Assembly: GCA_001792215.1 (NCBI GenBank)
Contig: MGGC01000038.1
Coordinates: 3,555-67,554 of the forward strand
DNA: 64,000 bases
Direction: 5' to 3'
Source: Candidatus Woesebacteria bacterium RIFCSPHIGHO2_01_FULL_38_10
GTDB taxonomy: Bacteria > Patescibacteriota > Microgenomatia > UBA8517
The notes below the pieces were generated by a model. It saw only the letters and a list, made by a program, of their open reading frames with translations. It searched no databases and was not told the origin of the DNA. This document shows, one piece after another, positions 9,933-17,650 of the stretch (the stretch's first letter is position 1; each line of letters begins with the position of its first letter). The position numbers and the translations under genes were made by a program.

Positions 9933-11135
9933 ATGAGTGAAAGAATACAAAAACCACATCTGCCTTACCGACAAGAAGTTGAGAGTGTTGTGGGCGGAGT
10001 TTTAAAGAGATGTCACCCACTTGGTACACTTGCTACCATCTATTATAAAGAGGCGCCTAATTTAATCGCTAAAACTGTTGATGGAAATACTCCAGCACAC
10101 TTAAACCGATTATTTCGAACAAGTCATTTTTCAGATGAAACTTTCAGGGGTATTCTTGAAGCTATGGCACAATGGTCTAATTTTGATGCACAAGTAGCTG
10201 AATCTCTTGTGGCCGAAACAGTACCTTGCTTAATGGCTTGCACATCATTTCTTAAACTTGAGAATGTAAAATCTTCCATGAATATCGGCTGGCAGTTACT
10301 AGCCAAGCAGGTTGGAGAAGGAAAAGTTTCATTAATGTCTCCACTTTGTCCACCCTATGATTACGTAGTCACCAGTAATGGCCATTTAAAACACGCTACC
10401 GGATCACTCCAACCCAAAATCGGGGAAAGATTCGAAACAGTAGCAAAAACGCTTGGAAGAGCATTCAAACCCTTGACAATTAAGGGTGTGGAGGTAACCT
10501 GGGAATTTTGGACTTACTCGGGTGAAACTTTAAACCTAGATGACGTAGTCGATCTTGGTGCAGACGTAATACAACACTATCAACGGCCTGAAGAAATATT
10601 TTCAAATTTACAAGCAGCATACAGAGATCTTAGATATCAGGCAACTCATCACATGAGTGAATTTGGAGTTGTGGCAAAAACAGTATCTATTGAGAATGTT
10701 ATTGGCCCCGTAATTCACCAAACAACAGAAGAATTTATGACTAGTTTCCCTAAAAGTCGGAATGGTATTCATCCTCCTGAAGAACCAGAGATTGATAAAT
10801 GGCTCGATGATAGATTTGGAGTAAAAGCAGGGTGGCTTATTTTTTTTATACAAGAGGAAAAAAGATATAGACAAAAACAAGGTGGGTTGATAGGCGACGG
10901 TAGTGATCCCATTGTTAAGTCAGCTCTACGAGAGGGACTGCTTTATTTGGGAATGACTAGATGGGCAGATCAAAATGGCACATTGATAATTGGTTTGGAA
11001 ACAACACCTGAATACATGGTCGGATCGTTAAGACACAGCCACGCTCCTGTAATTATGGGCGCTGCCTTTGATCCTAAAAAACCAGAGAATCCACTTAATG
11101 TACGCCAACCATTCAATCTACCTGTACGATTATGA
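9933..11135 (+). CDS. Hypothetical protein, unknown family (400 aa)
   Basis: ATG start; no motif I can assign (contains MSPLCPPYDYVVTSNGHLKHATG, HYQRPEE, THHMSEFG); stop overlaps the ATG of the next M20 gene (ATGA). Confidence 0.6.
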   Translation: MSERIQKPHLPYRQEVESVVGGVLKRCHPLGTLATIYYKEAPNLIAKTVDGNTPAHLNRLFRTSHFSDETFRGILEAMAQWSNFDAQVAESLVAETVPCLMACTSFLKLENVKSSMNIGWQLLAKQVGEGKVSLMSPLCPPYDYVVTSNGHLKHATGSLQPKIGERFETVAKTLGRAFKPLTIKGVEVTWEFWTYSGETLNLDDVVDLGADVIQHYQRPEEIFSNLQAAYRDLRYQATHHMSEFGVVAKTVSIENVIGPVIHQTTEEFMTSFPKSRNGIHPPEEPEIDKWLDDRFGVKAGWLIFFIQEEKRYRQKQGGLIGDGSDPIVKSALREGLLYLGMTRWADQNGTLIIGLETTPEYMVGSLRHSHAPVIMGAAFDPKKPENPLNVRQPFNLPVRL

Positions 11136-12650: not shown

Positions 12651-12749
12651 ATACTAGCCTTTAATGTCTAAGAAATTAATCAGCTTTTTCTTTTTTGCAT
12701 TTAACCCCACAAAGGCGGGGTAGATACCTATTTTGAATTATGAGGTGTT

Positions 12750-12771
12750 CCCCGCGAAAGCGGGGTTTTTT
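12750..12771 (+). terminator. Rho-independent terminator-like hairpin
   Basis: CCCCGC-GAAA-GCGGGG then TTTTTT, ending 6 nt before the ATG at 12778; a related hairpin CCCCACAAAGGCGGGG lies at 12705-12720. Confidence 0.5.
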
Positions 12772-12777
12772 ATTTGC

Positions 12778-14466
12778 ATGGGAGCCGAAAGATCAATACA
12801 AATAAATTCCATATCAGAAGCTAAAGCATTGGGTAATGGTGGAGAAATAGCGTTAGGAAACCAGGAAGAAGGAGGTTTAGTTGTTTCTCCAGAAGGAACA
12901 CTTTATGCCTTAAAACATAGAAGGTTCAGACTTAATGGTCGCAAGCCAGGTGATTACACGAGTTCTGATCTCGTACCAGTTTGCTACCGCATAGACCCCT
13001 TACCAAGTGGTGAAGAAACAAGACAAACAGTAACTGCTTGGTTAGAAAGTTTACGGAAAGGAGAAATTCCAGAACATGCAACGGTCGGAGTAGAGGTAGA
13101 GGCTACCTGTTATGATAGAAATTATAAGCTCCTCTCTCCCTACAATGATACTTTTCCTGCCCAGACTTATAATCATCCGGAGCTCCATTCATTTACTTTA
13201 GAAACAGCTACTAGCGAAAACAGCAGCTGTTTACCCAAAACTCCAGTCGAAACTGCGAGAGCAATAGCCAATGCTGTGCTCGATGGCTATAAAATTGTTA
13301 AACCAAGAGGTGGTCAACTAGCATATTCTTCCGTAGCAGAAGCCGGAGACGGAAATAACGCATCGACTACGCCTCATCCGTACTTAATTACCTTTGCACC
13401 GTTAATAGCACAATTTACATTGGATAACATTAATACTGTTCCTCCTGAAACACTTGAAATGTATGAAAGAGCTTATATCGACGTCGTTGGGCAAATGCAA
13501 AAAGGTGTCCTCAATTGGCCGGTAAATGCTCTTCACGTTCATACGGGAGTTCCACAAATAGAAGGTTTGGCCGATCCACGAGCCGCTCATGCTTGTGGAC
13601 TCGTTAAACTTACTGAATTTTCTAAGGTCCTCTCCTTAATGCTTTATAACACGAGACATTTATACGGAGTTGAATTGGGGGGAAAGGATGTTCGTTCAAT
13701 TGTAAGACGTCTCATTGTAAGTTCACATGATGCAACGATTCCTCAAGATACTGAAACTCTGGTGCAAAAAGCTTTACAGCAACTGCGAGAGGGAAAAATT
13801 CACAGCCTTCCAAGATACCCTGACACTGGGCAGCACGACCGTATGAGACTCCGGATGGATGGAAATAAAAAAACAGTCGAATCAATTGATGCTCCCATGA
13901 ATTCTGATCTACGGCTTGTTTTGTTCTGGGTTTTTGCAAACCAACTAAAAGATATTATCGCCCTAGATGCTCTAGAAGCTGTCGGAGGTGATACTTCTCA
14001 AGTAATACTTTATTTAAAGCAAAAGTGGGGAGAAATATTTCAAGTTATTCCAACCATGGGAGCCAATTCAAGTTACGAGCAAGATATTGAATTTAACCAA
14101 CTTGGATATGATGGTAAATCTAGCCTAAGAGGAATACCTTTTGCTAAAGTTCTAAGAGACGTGAAGATAATAATAACCCACTATGGGGATATCTATCCGG
14201 CGGTTGCGTTTGAGGCAGAAGTAATTATAAAAACAATCGACAGACAGCTTACGCCACCAACCCACGGAATAACACTTCAACAATACCTTGGAGTTGAAAC
14301 TGGTGTTTATATGCCTAATGGGCTAAATAATGGATTAGTCACAGATTATAAATACACAGATCCTAAACTAATAGTAAATATACAATCTGCTGCAACAAGA
14401 CTTCAAGCAGAAGCTTTATCAAAAATGACTGACGAAAAGGATTTGAAAGGATTCCTTGGCATTTAA
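12778..14466 (+). CDS. Large divergent protein with GCS2/YbdK-like (carboxylate-amine ligase, glutamate-cysteine ligase family 2) motifs
   Basis: Track start 12733 is TTG inside the terminator hairpin; ATG at 12778 (MGAERSIQ). Blocks TVGVEVEATCYD, NALHVHTGVPQ and HDRMRLRMDG recall the GIELEMQ / QHVHVG / VEVRVMD blocks of YbdK-type ligases. ~566 aa is much longer than YbdK. Assignment is from memory and tentative. Confidence 0.5.
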   Translation: MGAERSIQINSISEAKALGNGGEIALGNQEEGGLVVSPEGTLYALKHRRFRLNGRKPGDYTSSDLVPVCYRIDPLPSGEETRQTVTAWLESLRKGEIPEHATVGVEVEATCYDRNYKLLSPYNDTFPAQTYNHPELHSFTLETATSENSSCLPKTPVETARAIANAVLDGYKIVKPRGGQLAYSSVAEAGDGNNASTTPHPYLITFAPLIAQFTLDNINTVPPETLEMYERAYIDVVGQMQKGVLNWPVNALHVHTGVPQIEGLADPRAAHACGLVKLTEFSKVLSLMLYNTRHLYGVELGGKDVRSIVRRLIVSSHDATIPQDTETLVQKALQQLREGKIHSLPRYPDTGQHDRMRLRMDGNKKTVESIDAPMNSDLRLVLFWVFANQLKDIIALDALEAVGGDTSQVILYLKQKWGEIFQVIPTMGANSSYEQDIEFNQLGYDGKSSLRGIPFAKVLRDVKIIITHYGDIYPAVAFEAEVIIKTIDRQLTPPTHGITLQQYLGVETGVYMPNGLNNGLVTDYKYTDPKLIVNIQSAATRLQAEALSKMTDEKDLKGFLGI

Positions 14467-14580: not shown

Positions 14581-15052
14581 GTCTATTTCAGGATACAAAG
14601 AATTCGTAGCAAACCAGAAAGATTACCAAAGGAAATTGTCTAAAATTAAACACCTTTTACTCGACTAGGTGAGGCCTGTAAACACAGTGCGCCCGACGGG
14701 TGGTAGTCTGGACCCTTTTACAAGGCATGGAAAAAGACTCTGTCCACTATTCCTTGATCAATTTAAAGCCGTAGCTGTAGAAACTGACGAACAACTTATC
14801 CACCTTAGCCGATACATTCATCTTAATCCATATTCTTCACATGTTGTTAAAACAGTCGAAGAGCTGACAGAATACCTATGGTCGTCGTTTGAAGAATACA
14901 TCAAGCCGAAAAACAAAAACGTTTGTGATACAGGCATAATATTGTCTTTATTTAATCACAATGCCAAGCTAATCCACCTCCCAGGTGGATTCTCCATAAG
15001 GAAAATTAAGATTGATGATCTTTGGATTAGAAGTTATAATACTTATTACCAA
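14581..15052 (+). pseudogene. Remnant of a Y1 (IS200/RAYT-like, PF01797-type) tyrosine transposase, frameshifted and N-terminally truncated
   Basis: ORF 14669-15088 (GTG start) contains RYIHLNPYSSHVVKTVEELTEYLWSSFEEY, matching the YIHxNPV...YxWSS C-terminal block of REP-associated/IS200-like Y1 transposases. The upstream frame 14581-14668 reads ...KIKHLLLD* (possible HUH remnant). The ORF runs into tRNA-Val. Confidence 0.55.
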
Positions 15053-15129
15053 GGACGGTTAGCTCAGCTGGCTAGAGCGTTCGCTTGACGTGCGAAAGGT
15101 CGGGGGTTCAAGTCCCTCACCGTCCACCA
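15053..15129 (+). tRNA. tRNA-Val (anticodon GAC), CCA encoded
   Basis: Folded by hand: acceptor GGACGGT/ACCGTCC, D-stem GCTC/GAGC, anticodon stem TTCGC/GCGAA with loop TTGACGT, T-arm GGGGG-TTCAAGT-CCCTC, discriminator A, CCA. Confidence 0.9.
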
Positions 15130-15215
15130 GCTTACCCACCGGTTTGAAAAAATCAGTTTTGGTAAGGGTCCATGGCGCAACTGGTTAGCATGCTTGGCTG
15201 GGTACGTACATTTTG

Positions 15216-15287
15216 GGGCCCCTCGTTCAACGGTCAGGACACCTGGCTGGCAGTCAGGTAATAGGAGTTCGATTCCCCTGGGGTCCA
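15216..15287 (+). tRNA. tRNA-Ala (anticodon GGC), CCA not encoded
   Basis: Acceptor GGGCCCC/GGGGTCC with the G3-U70 wobble that marks Ala; D-stem GTTC/GGAC; anticodon stem CCTGG/TCAGG, loop CTGGCAG; T-arm AGGAG-TTCGATT-CCCCT (one A-C mismatch); discriminator A. Confidence 0.8.
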
Positions 15288-15374
15288 CAATAATTGTACG
15301 TACTTGGCAGTCAGGAGATCGGAGACTTGGGATGTTAGACGTTCTTCGACTCCCTCTAAATCCACAGCATAAAA

Positions 15375-15683
15375 ATGAGAAAAAGATTAATTCAGAAATA
15401 CCACCAGAATGTTCCCAAGGGTGTCAAAAAATTTGTCAAACTTTCAACCCTAAAAAAATTAAAAATTGCCTACATTCCTTATAATGAATTATTCAAAGAA
15501 GGTATTTTTGCAGGTCTCGGATGGGCAGTTGGCGTGACAATTGGTTTTGCGGTAATTTCGTCCGTTTTAGTAATCATTCTAAGACAATTGGGTGGCCTTC
15601 CTGTGATCGGAAACTGGATCGCCTCAATATTTCAAGAAACACAACTACAACTTCTGAAAAGGACCCCAATCATTCCACAATAA
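15375..15683 (+). CDS. Small membrane protein (hypothetical)
   Basis: 102 aa, basic N-terminus then one or two TM helices (GLGWAVGVTIGFAVISSVLVIILRQLGGLPVIGNWI). Confidence 0.4.
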   Translation: MRKRLIQKYHQNVPKGVKKFVKLSTLKKLKIAYIPYNELFKEGIFAGLGWAVGVTIGFAVISSVLVIILRQLGGLPVIGNWIASIFQETQLQLLKRTPIIPQ

Positions 15684-15850: not shown

Positions 15851-17650
15851 ATGAGAAACAAAAAGGTAAAACCAGTCAAAAAAAATGAAGGCCTTTGGAC
15901 AATGAGGCATTCGACTGAGCACGTCTTAACCCAAGCCATGCTAAAACTTTTTCCCGGATTAAAAATGGCTATGGGTCCGGCAACTGATGAAGGATTCTAT
16001 TTTGATTTCGACCCTTCGACAAACTCAGGACACGTTTACAAAATTTCAGAAGAAGATTTTCCCAAGATTGAATCCGAAATGCAAAGGATAATTAAAGCCA
16101 ACCTTCCAATTAAAAGAAAAGTTATCCCGATCAAGAATGCAAGAGCTCTTTTTAAAGGCAATGAATATAAACAAGAATGGCTTGATGAAATCGAAAACAA
16201 GGGAGAAAAGCTAACTGTCTTCTGGACAGGAAAGGAGTTTGTGGATTTGTGTGTCGGACCTCATGTCGCTTCAACCGGCAAAATAGGCCCGTTAAAACTC
16301 TTGTCAATTGCCGGAGCTTATTGGCGAGGAAGCGAAAAAAACAAAATGCTGGTAAGAATTTACGGAACAGCCTTTCCAAGCAAAAAAGAACTTGATGAAT
16401 ATCTTCAAATACAGAAAGAAGCAAAGAACCGCGATCATAGAAAATTGGGGCGCGATCTTGATCTGTTCACTTTTGCTGAGGAGGTCGGGCCCGGCCTCCC
16501 GCTTTGGACTCCAAAAGGGACTATAATCCAACAAGAACTTAGAAACTGGGCTGAAGAGACTGAAAAAAAATGGGGGTATGTCCGAGTAAGAACCCCTCAT
16601 ATCGCAAAGCACACTCTCTACGAGATTTCCGGACATCTGCCTTACTATAAAGATAATATGTACTCTCCGATGGATATCGATGGCGAAGATTACTATCTAA
16701 AAGGCATGAACTGCCCACATCATCACATGATCTATAAATCTTCACCCAAATCCTACCGCGATTTACCACTCAGATATGCCGAGTACGGAGAAGTCTATCG
16801 TTACGAACAATCAGGTACACTCTTTGGTTTAATGCGCGTACGCTTCATTCAACAAAACGACGCCCACATTTACTGTGCAATGGAAGATGCTGAAAAAGAA
16901 TTTTTGGATGTTTTGAAACTCCATGAATACTACTACAACATAATTGGTTTGACACGAGACGACTATCACATCGTCATGGGACTCCCTGACGAGAAAAAGC
17001 GCGACAAGTACCATGGCGATAAATCACTTTGGGATAAAGCTGAAGATATGATGCGCCAAGCGATTAAAAAATCGGGAATTAAATGGGTCGATGATATCGG
17101 GGGAGCCGCATTTTACGGACCGAAAATAGATTTTAATATAACCTCATCAGTCGGCAGGGTATTTGGGATTTCTACAAACCAACTTGATCTTTACATGCCA
17201 GAAAGATTTAATCTGACCTATACCGACAAAGACGGGTCTGAGAAGTTAACCGCAGTGATTCACAGAGCGCCACTTGGGTCACACGAGAGATTCATCGGCT
17301 TTCTAATCGAGCATTTTGGCGGAGCATTTCCCGTTTGGCTTACACCAGTTCAGGTTAAAGTACTTCCCGTTACTGAAAAAACCCTTGAGTATGCACGCGA
17401 AATAACCAAACGTCTAGACAACGAGGGGATACGAGTCGAACTCAATGATCGAAACGAAACATTGCAAGCCAAGATTCGCGACGCCCAACTTGAAAAAATT
17501 CCCTATATGCTTATAATAGGGAATAAAGAACAAAAAGCTAAAAATATTACAGTTCGCTTGCGGTCTAAAAAAGACTTGGGATGGATGAGTTTGGGAAAGT
17601 TTGTAGAAAGAGTGAAAGATAAAATAGAAAAAAAATCCCTAATTCTCTAA
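15851..17650 (+). CDS. thrS: Threonyl-tRNA synthetase (no N-terminal TGS domain)
   Basis: tRNA_SAD zinc motif HSTEHVLTQAM, class II core and C-terminal anticodon-binding domain; 599 aa. Confidence 0.9.
   Translation: MRNKKVKPVKKNEGLWTMRHSTEHVLTQAMLKLFPGLKMAMGPATDEGFYFDFDPSTNSGHVYKISEEDFPKIESEMQRIIKANLPIKRKVIPIKNARALFKGNEYKQEWLDEIENKGEKLTVFWTGKEFVDLCVGPHVASTGKIGPLKLLSIAGAYWRGSEKNKMLVRIYGTAFPSKKELDEYLQIQKEAKNRDHRKLGRDLDLFTFAEEVGPGLPLWTPKGTIIQQELRNWAEETEKKWGYVRVRTPHIAKHTLYEISGHLPYYKDNMYSPMDIDGEDYYLKGMNCPHHHMIYKSSPKSYRDLPLRYAEYGEVYRYEQSGTLFGLMRVRFIQQNDAHIYCAMEDAEKEFLDVLKLHEYYYNIIGLTRDDYHIVMGLPDEKKRDKYHGDKSLWDKAEDMMRQAIKKSGIKWVDDIGGAAFYGPKIDFNITSSVGRVFGISTNQLDLYMPERFNLTYTDKDGSEKLTAVIHRAPLGSHERFIGFLIEHFGGAFPVWLTPVQVKVLPVTEKTLEYAREITKRLDNEGIRVELNDRNETLQAKIRDAQLEKIPYMLIIGNKEQKAKNITVRLRSKKDLGWMSLGKFVERVKDKIEKKSLIL

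What the first reader, a model, noticed from the sequence alone, without database searches (positions are those of the whole stretch)
15130..15370. Complete tRNA-Ala nested between two halves of a degenerate tRNA-like sequence, bounded by GTACGTAC palindromes
tRNA-Ala(GGC) at 15216-15287 folds cleanly and has the G3-U70 identity pair. It is flanked by GTACGTAC on both sides (15202-15209 and 15296-15303). Outside those, the left flank (GGGTCCATGGCGCAACTGGTTAGCATGCTTGGCTGG) looks like the 5' half of a tRNA with acceptor, D-arm and the start of an anticodon arm. The right flank begins TTGGCAGTCAGGAG, which is nearly identical to the tRNA-Ala anticodon-loop/3' stem (CTGGCAGTCAGGTAATAGGAG), and continues with a T-arm-like GGAG...CTCC. 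Joining the two flanks recreates an anticodon stem-loop TTGGCTGG|CAGTCAGG. So a functional tRNA appears inserted at the anticodon loop of an older, now degenerate paralogue. This could be a duplication or repair event, or the footprint of an element that targets tRNA anticodon loops.
Basis: seen in the sequence. Interest (0 to 1): 0.55.

Follow-up and report, generated by a model that had tools for sequence, protein, structure and literature searches.

The report
Live tRNA-Ala gene inside dead one
In an uncultured groundwater bacterium (Candidate Phyla Radiation), a working alanine tRNA gene sits inside the anticodon loop of an older, decayed alanine tRNA gene, which looks like a snapshot of one tRNA gene being replaced by another rather than a new kind of RNA machine.

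Summary
An intact tRNA-Ala(GGC) lies at 15216-15288. It is flanked by the only two GTACGTAC octamers in the 64 kb window. Outside those lie the 5' part (15166-15201) and 3' part (15304-15364) of a second, degenerate tRNA-Ala(GGC). Deleting both inserts in silico lets ARAGORN call a 74-nt tRNA-Ala(GGC) at its default threshold. Thirteen contigs from different samples and assemblies are identical here, so this is not an assembly artefact.

The host is a Woesebacteria-like CPR bacterium. Relatives carry one tRNA-Ala(GGC) in this same slot (tRNA-Val ... tRNA-Ala, DUF5665, thrS), in three sequence classes. The outer copy is a decayed member of the commonest class. The inner copy belongs to a different class, so local duplication is unlikely.

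Best reading (0.55): a roughly 103-bp segment carrying a complete tRNA-Ala gene inserted into the resident gene's anticodon loop, took over its function, and the resident decayed. Main rival: scars of integrative elements, since short tRNA fragments next to intact tRNAs recur in relatives. The insertion mechanism is unresolved because the public pattern scans were truncated. It is not a group I intron. Interest is moderate.

The parts
14669..15049 (+). Truncated ORF resembling the C-terminal part of a REP-associated tyrosine transposase. This is context; it is not shown to be involved.
   Evidence: NCBIfam NF047646, E 0.0016, below the curated cut-off. No Pfam hit at E 0.01 or better. No N-terminal part in the other frames.
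15012..15040 (+). Sigma-70-like promoter TTGATG-17-TATAAT. It is the only + strand promoter-like site scanned between 14800 and 15900, and the likely start of the tRNA-Val / tRNA-Ala transcript.
   Evidence: 10 of 12 consensus matches. This is a consensus match only.
15053..15129 (+). tRNA-Val(GAC) with encoded CCA.
   Evidence: ARAGORN. Rfam 66.6 bits.
15166..15201 (+). Outer tRNA-Ala(GGC) pseudogene, 5' part: acceptor GGGTCCA, D arm GCGC-AACTGGTTA-GCAT, anticodon stem CTTGG, and loop bases CTGG (tRNA positions 1-35).
   Evidence: nhmmer model positions 2-34. ARAGORN on the spliced construct. The D arm matches class III genes such as L141.
15202..15213 (.). Left arm of the inverted repeat: GTACGTAC, extended to GTACGTACATTT. 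It forms the 5' leader of the inner tRNA.
   Evidence: A related leader, GGTACGTAAATTA, sits upstream of the intact tRNA-Ala in L141.
15216..15288 (+). Inner, intact tRNA-Ala(GGC), class II. It has G3:U70 and A73, and no encoded CCA.
   Evidence: ARAGORN. Rfam 49.4 bits. 79-86% identical to class II genes of L025, L048, L097, L139 and L146.
15292..15303 (.). Right arm of the inverted repeat: AATTGTACGTAC, within the 3' trailer of the inner tRNA.
15304..15364 (+). Outer tRNA-Ala(GGC) pseudogene, 3' part: loop TTGGCAG, stem TCAGG, variable region AGATC, T stem GGAG, T loop TTCGACT, then CCCTC, and the acceptor 3' strand TAAATCC plus A. It ends 10 nt before the DUF5665 ATG.
   Evidence: nhmmer model positions 24-72. 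17 of 20 bases identical to the inner gene at 15248-15267. ARAGORN on the spliced construct.
15325..15344 (+). Second interruption of the outer gene: 20 nt (ACTTGGGATGTTAGACGTTC) between the T stem 5' strand and the T loop.
   Evidence: nhmmer places a 20-nt insert here. ARAGORN at its default threshold calls the outer gene only when this stretch is also removed.
15375..15683 (+). DUF5665 gene, followed by thrS (15851-17650) and infC. These are the conserved neighbours that define the slot.
   Evidence: Pfam PF18910, E 1.9e-12. Synteny in relatives.

Best explanation
The outer sequence (15166-15201 plus 15304-15364) is the dead remnant of the tRNA-Ala(GGC) gene that originally occupied the slot between tRNA-Val(GAC) and the DUF5665-thrS genes.

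A DNA segment of about 103 bp (about 106 bp if one copy of the YTGG repeat is counted) was inserted into its anticodon loop. The join cannot be placed more precisely than tRNA positions 31-35, because YTGG is repeated on both sides. The segment carried a complete tRNA-Ala(GGC) gene of a different sequence class, with about 14 nt of leader and 16 nt of trailer. The incoming gene took over decoding of GCC/GCU codons. The split resident gene then decayed, through GC-to-AT changes in its stems and a further 20-nt insertion in its T arm.

Today the locus most likely works as one transcription unit starting at the promoter-like site at 15012-15040. RNase P and a 3' endonuclease plus CCA-adding enzyme would release tRNA-Val and the inner tRNA-Ala. 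The outer halves would be mere leader and trailer, and they can pair with each other into a long helix below the inner acceptor stem.

Shown: the anatomy, the tRNA ancestry of both flanks, the class difference between the copies, the positional orthology of the outer copy, and reproducibility across assemblies.

Inferred: the order of events, that only the inner gene is functional, the transcription and processing scheme, and the source of the insert (a related genome or another locus of the same genome). The enzyme that made the insertion is unknown.
For: Anatomy and statistics.

Not an artefact: 13 identical contigs.

Positional orthology. In relatives the tRNA-Ala(GGC) 3' end lies immediately upstream of the DUF5665 start: 1-20 nt in L095, L097, L144, L146 and L149, and 64 nt in L148. 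In the window it is the outer 3' end (15364) that keeps this spacing, with the ATG at 15375.

Class assignment. The outer D arm TGGCGCAACTGGTTAGC and its 5-nt variable region match class III genes (L141, L148, L149, L040, L047, L049). The inner gene matches class II at 79-86% identity, against 72% to the outer copy.

Decay. At 51 columns that are invariant in six class III genes, the outer copy differs at 10. Eight of the nine substitutions are G-to-A or C-to-T, and they fall mostly in the acceptor and D stems.

Single-event geometry. The 5' fragment ends at loop position 35 and the 3' fragment starts at position 32. The overlap is CTGG/TTGG, and both fragments are class III-like.

Flank pairing. 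The flanks pair at -24.8 kcal/mol, and none of 1,000 shuffles matches this. That is what an insertion into a stem-loop bounded by an inverted repeat would produce.
Against: No empty site (an intact outer-type gene with the same flanks) and no donor locus was found. The closest relatives are only 75% identical or less in the DUF5665 protein.

No second copy of the GTACGTAC-bounded unit was found. That search is uninformative, because the collection scans stopped at 20 loci and missed known positives.

The direct repeat at the junctions is only 3 nt perfect (TGG), or 4 nt with one mismatch.

Relative L139 has a comparable 3' fragment after a class II gene but no 5' fragment. That fits one-sided integration scars at least as well.

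The apparently compensatory acceptor pairs T4:A69 and A7:T66 are what GC-to-AT decay of G:C pairs gives by itself. They do not prove that the two halves were once one gene.

There are no expression data.
Confidence: 0.55

Rival explanations
1. The fragments are scars of integrative elements. Tyrosine-integrase elements that target tRNA genes split the target and regenerate it from a copy they carry. This leaves a displaced 5' fragment upstream or a 3' fragment downstream. On this reading the window shows the remains of two such events at the anticodon loop, one on each side. Both elements would later have been deleted down to 14-16 nt, so the functional gene is entirely element-derived.
For: The configuration (5' fragment upstream, 3' fragment downstream, same orientation, break in the anticodon loop) is the known signature of integration at tRNA genes, and the anticodon loop is one of the known crossover sublocations (PMC4383910; PMC9897764).

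Short tRNA fragments beside intact tRNAs recur in relatives:
- L094: a 16-nt duplicate of the 3' end after 69 nt.
- L025: a 19-nt duplicate of the 5' end.
- L050 and L055: 3' duplicates.
- L139: tRNA-Val 5' and 3' duplicates, plus a tRNA-Ala 3' fragment that starts at the first loop base, 13 nt after a class II gene.
Against: It needs at least two integrations and two near-complete deletions that spare the tRNA, against one event for the nested insertion.

There is no integrase gene, and no ORF at all, between the fragments and the gene.

The inner gene is a uniform class II gene, not a chimera of two sources.

Exact identity between the fragment and the regenerated gene is only 11 nt (TGGCAGTCAGG), far shorter than the identity blocks reported for such events, for example the 44-bp direct repeats flanking the PYG1 island (PMC9897764).
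Confidence: 0.25
2. The insert is a miniature mobile cassette: a non-autonomous, inverted-repeat-bounded element whose cargo is a tRNA-Ala gene. It would insert into tRNA anticodon loops by transposase-like or endonuclease-driven homing, making a 3-4 bp target duplication.
For: There are terminal inverted repeats (8 nt perfect, 12 nt at 92%) and a flanking TGG / YTGG direct repeat.

GTACGTAC is otherwise absent from the window and from 730 kb of relatives.

In relative L141 an intact tRNA-Val, together with a GIY-YIG nuclease gene, is nested between a 5' fragment and a 3' fragment of a tRNA-Val-like gene. That is the same topology, with a nuclease on board.
Against: No second copy was found anywhere, although the result is truncated.

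No transposase or GIY-YIG gene lies near the locus in the window.

The left GTACGTAC resembles the native leader of an uninterrupted tRNA-Ala in L141. It need not be an element end.

Cargo identical in anticodon to the target is explained just as well by selection: only an insert that brings a replacement is tolerated.
Confidence: 0.12
3. The arrangement is a functional intron-like or split tRNA. The inner tRNA would act as an intron of the outer tRNA, excised by RNase P and RNase Z or by self-splicing, so that both tRNAs are made.
For: The insertion lies in the anticodon loop, around positions 32-36. Group I introns of Patescibacteria tRNAs lie at 35/36 (PMC13011429). The flanks form a strong helix.
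Against: The insert is 106 nt and has no match to any Rfam family other than tRNA at E up to 10, so there is no group I intron core.

The outer gene has 2 of 7 acceptor pairs broken, weak D and T stems, and an extra 20 nt in the T arm.

ARAGORN in intron mode does not call it, even at 70% thresholds.

From general knowledge, not checked here: bacteria are not known to ligate tRNA halves after RNase P and RNase Z cleavage.
Confidence: 0.03
4. The inner gene arose from the outer one by a local duplication or repair event (a nested self-copy), and the two then diverged.
For: Both copies share the anticodon and have nearly identical anticodon arms.
Against: The inner gene shares many class II-specific states with genes of other genomes: the D arm TCGTTCAAYGGTNAGGAC, a 4-nt variable region, and the T arm AGGAGTTCGATTC. 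The outer copy shares class III states.
Confidence: 0.04

Closest known systems
tRNA gene fragments left by integrative genetic elements, that is attL/attR scars (the 'Islander' signature: Reiter 1989; Williams 2002; Hudson 2015, PMC4383910; van der Gulik 2023, PMC9897764)
   Same: An intact tRNA gene has cognate fragments in the same orientation, with the 5' fragment upstream and the 3' fragment downstream. The break is in the anticodon loop. Incoming DNA restores function.
   Different: Here both fragments are present at once, only 14-16 nt from the intact gene. There is no integrase and no cargo other than the tRNA. The incoming DNA supplies a whole gene rather than the missing part. The shared identity block is only 11 nt.
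Group I introns in the anticodon loop of Patescibacteria tRNA genes (Nakagawa et al. 2026, PMC13011429)
   Same: Same phylum, same part of the tRNA gene (the anticodon loop, around position 35/36). The interrupted genes escape standard tRNA finders.
   Different: The insert is 106 nt with no group I core, and it is itself a tRNA. The interrupted gene is degenerate and is interrupted a second time.
Archaeal tRNA introns that host a functional RNA, such as the box C/D RNA in the tRNA-Trp intron of Haloferax, and split tRNAs of Nanoarchaeum. This comparison rests on my own knowledge and was not checked here.
   Same: A functional small RNA is embedded at the anticodon loop of a tRNA gene, and complementary flanks hold the halves together.
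   Different: Those depend on a bulge-helix-bulge motif, a splicing endonuclease and a ligase, and they yield a functional outer tRNA. None of that is evident here, and the host is a bacterium.
Free-standing GIY-YIG homing endonucleases in tRNA gene clusters, such as phage T4 SegB. This comparison rests on my own knowledge and was not checked here.
   Same: In relative L141 a GIY-YIG gene travels with a tRNA-Val nested inside a tRNA-Val-like gene. This suggests nuclease-driven turnover of tRNA genes in this clade.
   Different: No GIY-YIG gene is present at the window locus. No cleavage activity or target is known.

Membership tests
Canonical bacterial tRNA-Ala (inner gene) | Cloverleaf scoring above the Rfam tRNA gathering threshold; G3:U70 and A73 identity elements; GGC anticodon. 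| tested here: met
   Rfam 49.4 bits against a threshold of 29. ARAGORN structure with G3-U70, A73 and one A.C mismatch in the T stem.
Integration scar at a tRNA gene (Islander signature) | An intact tRNA gene plus a cognate end fragment in the same orientation, with the 5' fragment upstream or the 3' fragment downstream. | tested here: met
   The configuration rule is given in PMC4383910.
Integration scar at a tRNA gene (Islander signature) | The fragment endpoint lies at a known crossover sublocation (anticodon loop, or T loop / junction). | tested here: met
   The 3' fragment starts at loop position 32 and the 5' fragment ends at position 35.
Integration scar at a tRNA gene (Islander signature) | A tyrosine integrase gene, and an island of at least 2 kb, between the tRNA gene and the fragment. 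| tested here: not met
   The spacers are 14 and 16 nt, with no ORF between them.
Group I intron in a tRNA gene | A conserved catalytic core (P3-P9), usually more than 200 nt, and exons that join into a functional tRNA. | tested here: not met
   No group I intron match at E up to 10 in 14950-15450. The insert is 106 nt. The outer exons are degenerate.
MITE / IS-type transposable element | Terminal inverted repeats. | tested here: met
   8 nt perfect, 12 nt at 92%.
MITE / IS-type transposable element | A target-site duplication of fixed length. | tested here: inconclusive
   TGG is perfect, and CTGG/TTGG is imperfect. An alternative register gives CTTGGC x 2, which overlaps the palindrome.
MITE / IS-type transposable element | Multiple copies in the genome or in related genomes. 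| tested here: inconclusive
   There are none in the window or in 730 kb of relatives. The metagenome scan returned 20 unrelated hits and missed the known locus, so it was truncated. There are none in viral contigs.
Archaeal-type BHB intron / split tRNA | A bulge-helix-bulge motif at both exon-intron junctions, plus a splicing endonuclease. | tested here: not met
   The flanks fold into an 18-bp helix with a single 3-nt bulge, not the 3-4-3 motif. The host is bacterial. An endonuclease gene was not searched for.

The most novel reading that the evidence does not exclude
In this CPR clade, tRNA genes may be turned over by small cassettes that carry a complete tRNA gene. Sometimes the cassette would come with a GIY-YIG nuclease gene, as in L141. 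Sometimes it would be stripped to about 100 bp and bounded by palindromes, as here. Such cassettes would insert into a loop of the cognate resident tRNA gene, killing it and replacing it in one step. This would be a homing-like, self-compensating way of spreading tRNA alleles.
Probability: 0.12. Interest if true: 0.75.

Novelty: new variant of a known kind. Interest (0 to 1): 0.4.

Why it matters
If the single-insertion reading is right, this is an unusually clean picture of how a tRNA gene can be replaced in place. The replacement lands inside the old gene, so function is never lost, and the old gene is left as two recognisable halves.

With the scars seen in relatives, it suggests that the tRNA-Val / tRNA-Ala cluster next to thrS is a hotspot of insertion and allele turnover in Woesebacteria-like CPR bacteria. 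These genomes are small, and each tRNA is probably single-copy.

Practically, such loci produce tRNA-like fragments that gene finders can miss or mis-call.

It does not by itself reveal a new RNA mechanism.

Tried and rejected
ARAGORN with intron options and thresholds lowered to 70% on the native sequence gave only the two known tRNAs. At 60% it gave a spurious overlapping 'tRNA-Leu', and the tmRNA mode gave a spurious permuted tmRNA. I ignored both.

Rfam at E up to 10 over 14950-15450 found nothing beyond the two tRNAs and chance hits.

The whole-region minimum-free-energy fold is not better than shuffles (z = -1.09), so there is no evidence for an overall structured RNA.

A viral-contig scan for the two inverted-repeat arms returned 20 loci. 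All were arrays of TTGTACGTACAA palindromes in phage contigs, with no tRNA inside, so they are unrelated.

A metagenome scan for GTACGTACA-(2-8)-GGGYC-(65-90)-TGTACGTAC returned 20 unrelated repeats and no tRNA. It also failed to return JGI contigs known to contain an exact match, such as L002. Output therefore appears capped at 20 loci, and the negative result carries no weight.

Viral scans for the class II tRNA-Ala body and for the cassette pattern returned nothing.

I first took the acceptor pairs T4:A69 and A7:T66 as compensatory evidence that the two halves were one gene. I rejected this, because GC-to-AT decay of both partners of a G:C pair gives A:T without any selection.

Alignment of the window's 3' remnant with the L139 remnant is only marginally better than shuffles: 27 of 2,000 overall, and 171 of 2,000 for the T-arm part. 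Shared ancestry of the two remnants is therefore not established.

A motif scan of the window's six-frame translation found no GIY-YIG gene.

Full report
**What is there.** The stretch reads, 5' to 3':
- a promoter-like site, TTGATG-17-TATAAT, at 15012-15040;
- tRNA-Val(GAC) at 15053-15129;
- a 36-nt spacer;
- a 36-nt tRNA 5' part at 15166-15201;
- GTACGTAC at 15202-15209, followed by ATTTTG;
- an intact tRNA-Ala(GGC) at 15216-15288;
- AATAATT, then GTACGTAC at 15296-15303;
- a 61-nt tRNA 3' part at 15304-15364;
- 10 nt, and then the ATG of a DUF5665 gene at 15375.

Downstream come thrS, infC, rpmI, rplT and pheST.

**The inner gene.** It is a good tRNA. Rfam scores it at 49.4 bits, and it has G3:U70, A73 and one A.C mismatch in the T stem.

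**Is it real?** GTACGTAC occurs only at these two places in the 64 kb. Shuffles expect 0.12 occurrences. It does not occur at all in 730 kb of related loci. The repeat extends to a 12-nt imperfect inverted repeat. The same 341 nt are identical in 13 contigs from different samples, sources and assemblies, from ENA, JGI and Logan. An assembly chimera is therefore excluded.

**Are the flanks really tRNA-derived?** I built an HMM from the tRNA-Ala(GGC) genes of 11 relatives and included nothing from the window. Searched against both strands of the window, it ranks:
1. the inner gene;
2. tRNA-Val;
3. the right flank (15297-15365, model positions 24-72, E 0.083, with a 20-nt insertion);
4. the left flank (15167-15201, model positions 2-34, E 0.47).

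Each flank E-value is marginal on its own. Together they are convincing: these are the third and fourth best hits in 128 kb, on the same strand, collinear, with complementary model ranges, and they bracket the best hit.

Joining 15201 to 15308 restores the anticodon arm CTTGG-CTGGCAG-TCAGG. ARAGORN at its default threshold calls a 74-nt tRNA-Ala(GGC) only when 15325-15344 is removed as well. With the same deletion geometry at 40 random offsets, none of 107,520 constructs gave a call. At the true locus, 8 of 2,688 variants did.

It is also degenerate: 5 of 7 acceptor pairs, 3 of 4 D-stem pairs and 3 of 5 T-stem pairs remain.

**Whose genome, and what is normally at this place?** The DUF5665 protein is identical to one that NCBI names from Candidatus Woesebacteria bacterium RIFCSPHIGHO2_01_FULL_38_10. 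The samples come from the Rifle aquifer. thrS relatives are candidate division WWE3, Woesebacteria and other Patescibacteria, at 69% identity or less.

In relatives the order M20 peptidase ... tRNA-Val(GAC) ... tRNA-Ala(GGC) - DUF5665 ... thrS recurs. The tRNA-Ala 3' end usually lies 1-20 nt before the DUF5665 start codon. In the window it is the outer 3' end that keeps this spacing.

**Three classes of tRNA-Ala(GGC) at this slot**:

| Class | Length | D arm | Other features | Loci |
|---|---|---|---|---|
| I | 75 nt | GCTCAATTGGCCAGAGC | – | L029, L095, L144 |
| II | 72 nt | TCGTTCAATGGTAGGAC | 4-nt variable region | L025, L048, L097, L139, L146 |
| III | 75 nt | GGCGCA..TGG.TAGCGCG | variable region AGGTC or AGGTT | L040, L047, L049, L141, L148, L149 |

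The inner gene is class II: 79-86% identical to those genes, and 72% to the outer copy. The outer copy has the class III D arm and a 5-nt variable region, and its best match is L141. At 51 columns invariant in six class III genes it differs at 10. Eight of the nine substitutions are G-to-A or C-to-T, concentrated in stems. That is the pattern expected for a gene decaying without constraint in an AT-rich genome.

These results make the outer copy the old resident and the inner copy a newcomer of another lineage. They argue against a local self-duplication.

**The junctions.** The left fragment ends ...CTTGG CTGG. The right fragment begins TTGG CAG TCAGG. So 3 nt (TGG), or 4 nt with one mismatch, are repeated, and the join can be placed anywhere between positions 31 and 35.

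The insert, with its inverted-repeat ends, looks transposon-like. However, a GTACGTA motif also lies 5 nt upstream of the uninterrupted class III tRNA-Ala of L141 (GCCGGGTACGTAAATTA-GGGCC, against the window's GCTGGGTACGTACATTTTG-GGGCC). This 7-mer occurs about once per 70 kb in the related loci. The left palindrome may therefore be native leader sequence that travelled with the gene.

In RNA the two flanks can pair over about 18 bp at -24.8 kcal/mol, and none of 1,000 shuffles does as well. This follows from inserting an inverted-repeat-bounded piece into a stem-loop. It need not have a function.

**Relatives show that this tRNA cluster is scarred repeatedly.**
- L094 has a tRNA-Ala, then 69 nt, then a repeat of its last 16 nt.
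- L025 has a 19-nt 5' duplicate 51 nt upstream of its tRNA-Ala. L050 and L055 have 3' duplicates.
- L139 has two tandem 82-nt units that start with the first 19-20 nt of tRNA-Val, and a 14-nt tRNA-Val 3' duplicate. Thirteen nt after a class II tRNA-Ala it also has a 3' tRNA-Ala fragment. That fragment begins at the first loop base and is interrupted before its T arm. This is the same layout as the right half of the window locus, but without a 5' fragment. Its similarity to the window's remnant is only marginal.
- L141 has an intact tRNA-Val plus an 81-aa GIY-YIG nuclease gene (PF01541, E 7e-18). Both are nested between a 5' fragment (24 nt exact) and a 3' fragment (31 nt exact) of a tRNA-Val-like gene whose anticodon arm differs.

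**Explanations.** The simplest account of the window is one insertion of a roughly 103-bp piece carrying a whole tRNA-Ala gene into the resident gene's anticodon loop, followed by decay of the resident (confidence 0.55).

The main rival is the well-known integration signature. Integrase-mediated insertion into a tRNA gene leaves 5' fragments upstream and 3' fragments downstream, and the crossover is often in the anticodon loop (PMC4383910; PMC9897764). This fits the one-sided scars in relatives. For the window, though, it needs two integrations and two near-total deletions, there is no integrase, and the inner gene is not chimeric (0.25).

A dedicated mobile tRNA cassette (0.12) is suggested by the inverted repeat, the short direct repeat and the L141 parallel. 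No second copy was found, but the scans that could have found one were truncated at 20 loci.

An intron-like function is unlikely. The insert has no group I core (compare the 35/36 group I introns of Patescibacteria, PMC13011429), and the outer gene is broken in several places (0.03). Local duplication is contradicted by the class assignment (0.04).

**Verdict.** It remains open how the structure arose.

The kind of thing, tRNA gene fragments beside a restored tRNA gene, is known. What is unusual is the form: both halves are retained around a complete replacement gene in about 200 bp, with palindromic junctions and no other cargo. It is worth a systematic survey in CPR genomes. On present evidence it is a genomic scar, not a new functional system.

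Noticed in passing
L141 982-1452 (minus strand); also L142, L143: An intact tRNA-Val(GAC) and an 81-aa GIY-YIG nuclease gene are nested between a 5' fragment (24 nt exact) and a 3' fragment (31 nt exact) of a tRNA-Val-like gene. In that gene the anticodon arm is replaced by GTCGCCTTGGGCGAC. ARAGORN calls the joined fragments 'tRNA-Gln(TTG)'.
   Followed up: partly
L139 905-1410 (minus strand); also L140: Two tandem 82-nt units each begin with the first 19-20 nt of tRNA-Val, followed by a CTGTGC-CTT-GCACAG hairpin. There is a 14-nt tRNA-Val 3' duplicate after 61 nt. A 3' tRNA-Ala fragment with an insert of about 48 nt lies 13 nt after the intact class II tRNA-Ala.
   Followed up: partly
L094 1-125; L025 2271-2412; L050 3297-3516; L055 2041-2187: Short partial duplicates of tRNA ends (15-21 nt) lie 41-130 nt from the intact tRNA. 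This suggests frequent small insertions or decayed integrations at tRNA genes in these CPR genomes.
   Followed up: partly
window 14669-15049: A truncated ORF weakly resembles the C-terminal part of a REP-associated tyrosine transposase (NF047646, E 0.0016). It ends next to the tRNA-Val promoter. No N-terminal part appears in any frame.
   Followed up: partly
window 15364-15377 and relatives L095, L097, L144, L146, L149: The tRNA-Ala 3' end lies only 1-20 nt before the DUF5665 start codon. tRNA 3' processing may therefore create the 5' end of the DUF5665-thrS mRNA. In the window the decayed outer 3' end keeps this spacing.
   Followed up: no
L031 about 1235 onward; L096 1-95: ORFs that look like small GIY-YIG nucleases lie directly beside the tRNA-Val / tRNA-Ala cluster. 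L031 reads MYYVYLLKLNNQKIYVGFTTNL..., and L096 ends ...KYLKTSSGYAFRKKRLI. In L096 the ORF lies where the tRNA-Ala would be. This was judged by eye only.
   Followed up: no
L099-L118 (IMG/VR contigs): Arrays of the 12-bp palindrome TTGTACGTACAA, spaced 30-60 nt apart, occur in intergenic regions of a group of phage contigs. They look like operator or iteron sites and are unrelated to the tRNA locus.
   Followed up: no
L003 3613-5268: In one 156-kb contig with an identical tRNA region, the gene after DUF5665 is called as 551 aa with no Pfam hit on record, instead of the 599-aa ThrRS. This may be a frameshift or a variant allele.
   Followed up: no
window 9933-11135 and 12733-14466: Two large ORFs (400 and 577 aa) upstream of the tRNA cluster have no Pfam or NCBIfam match.
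   Followed up: no
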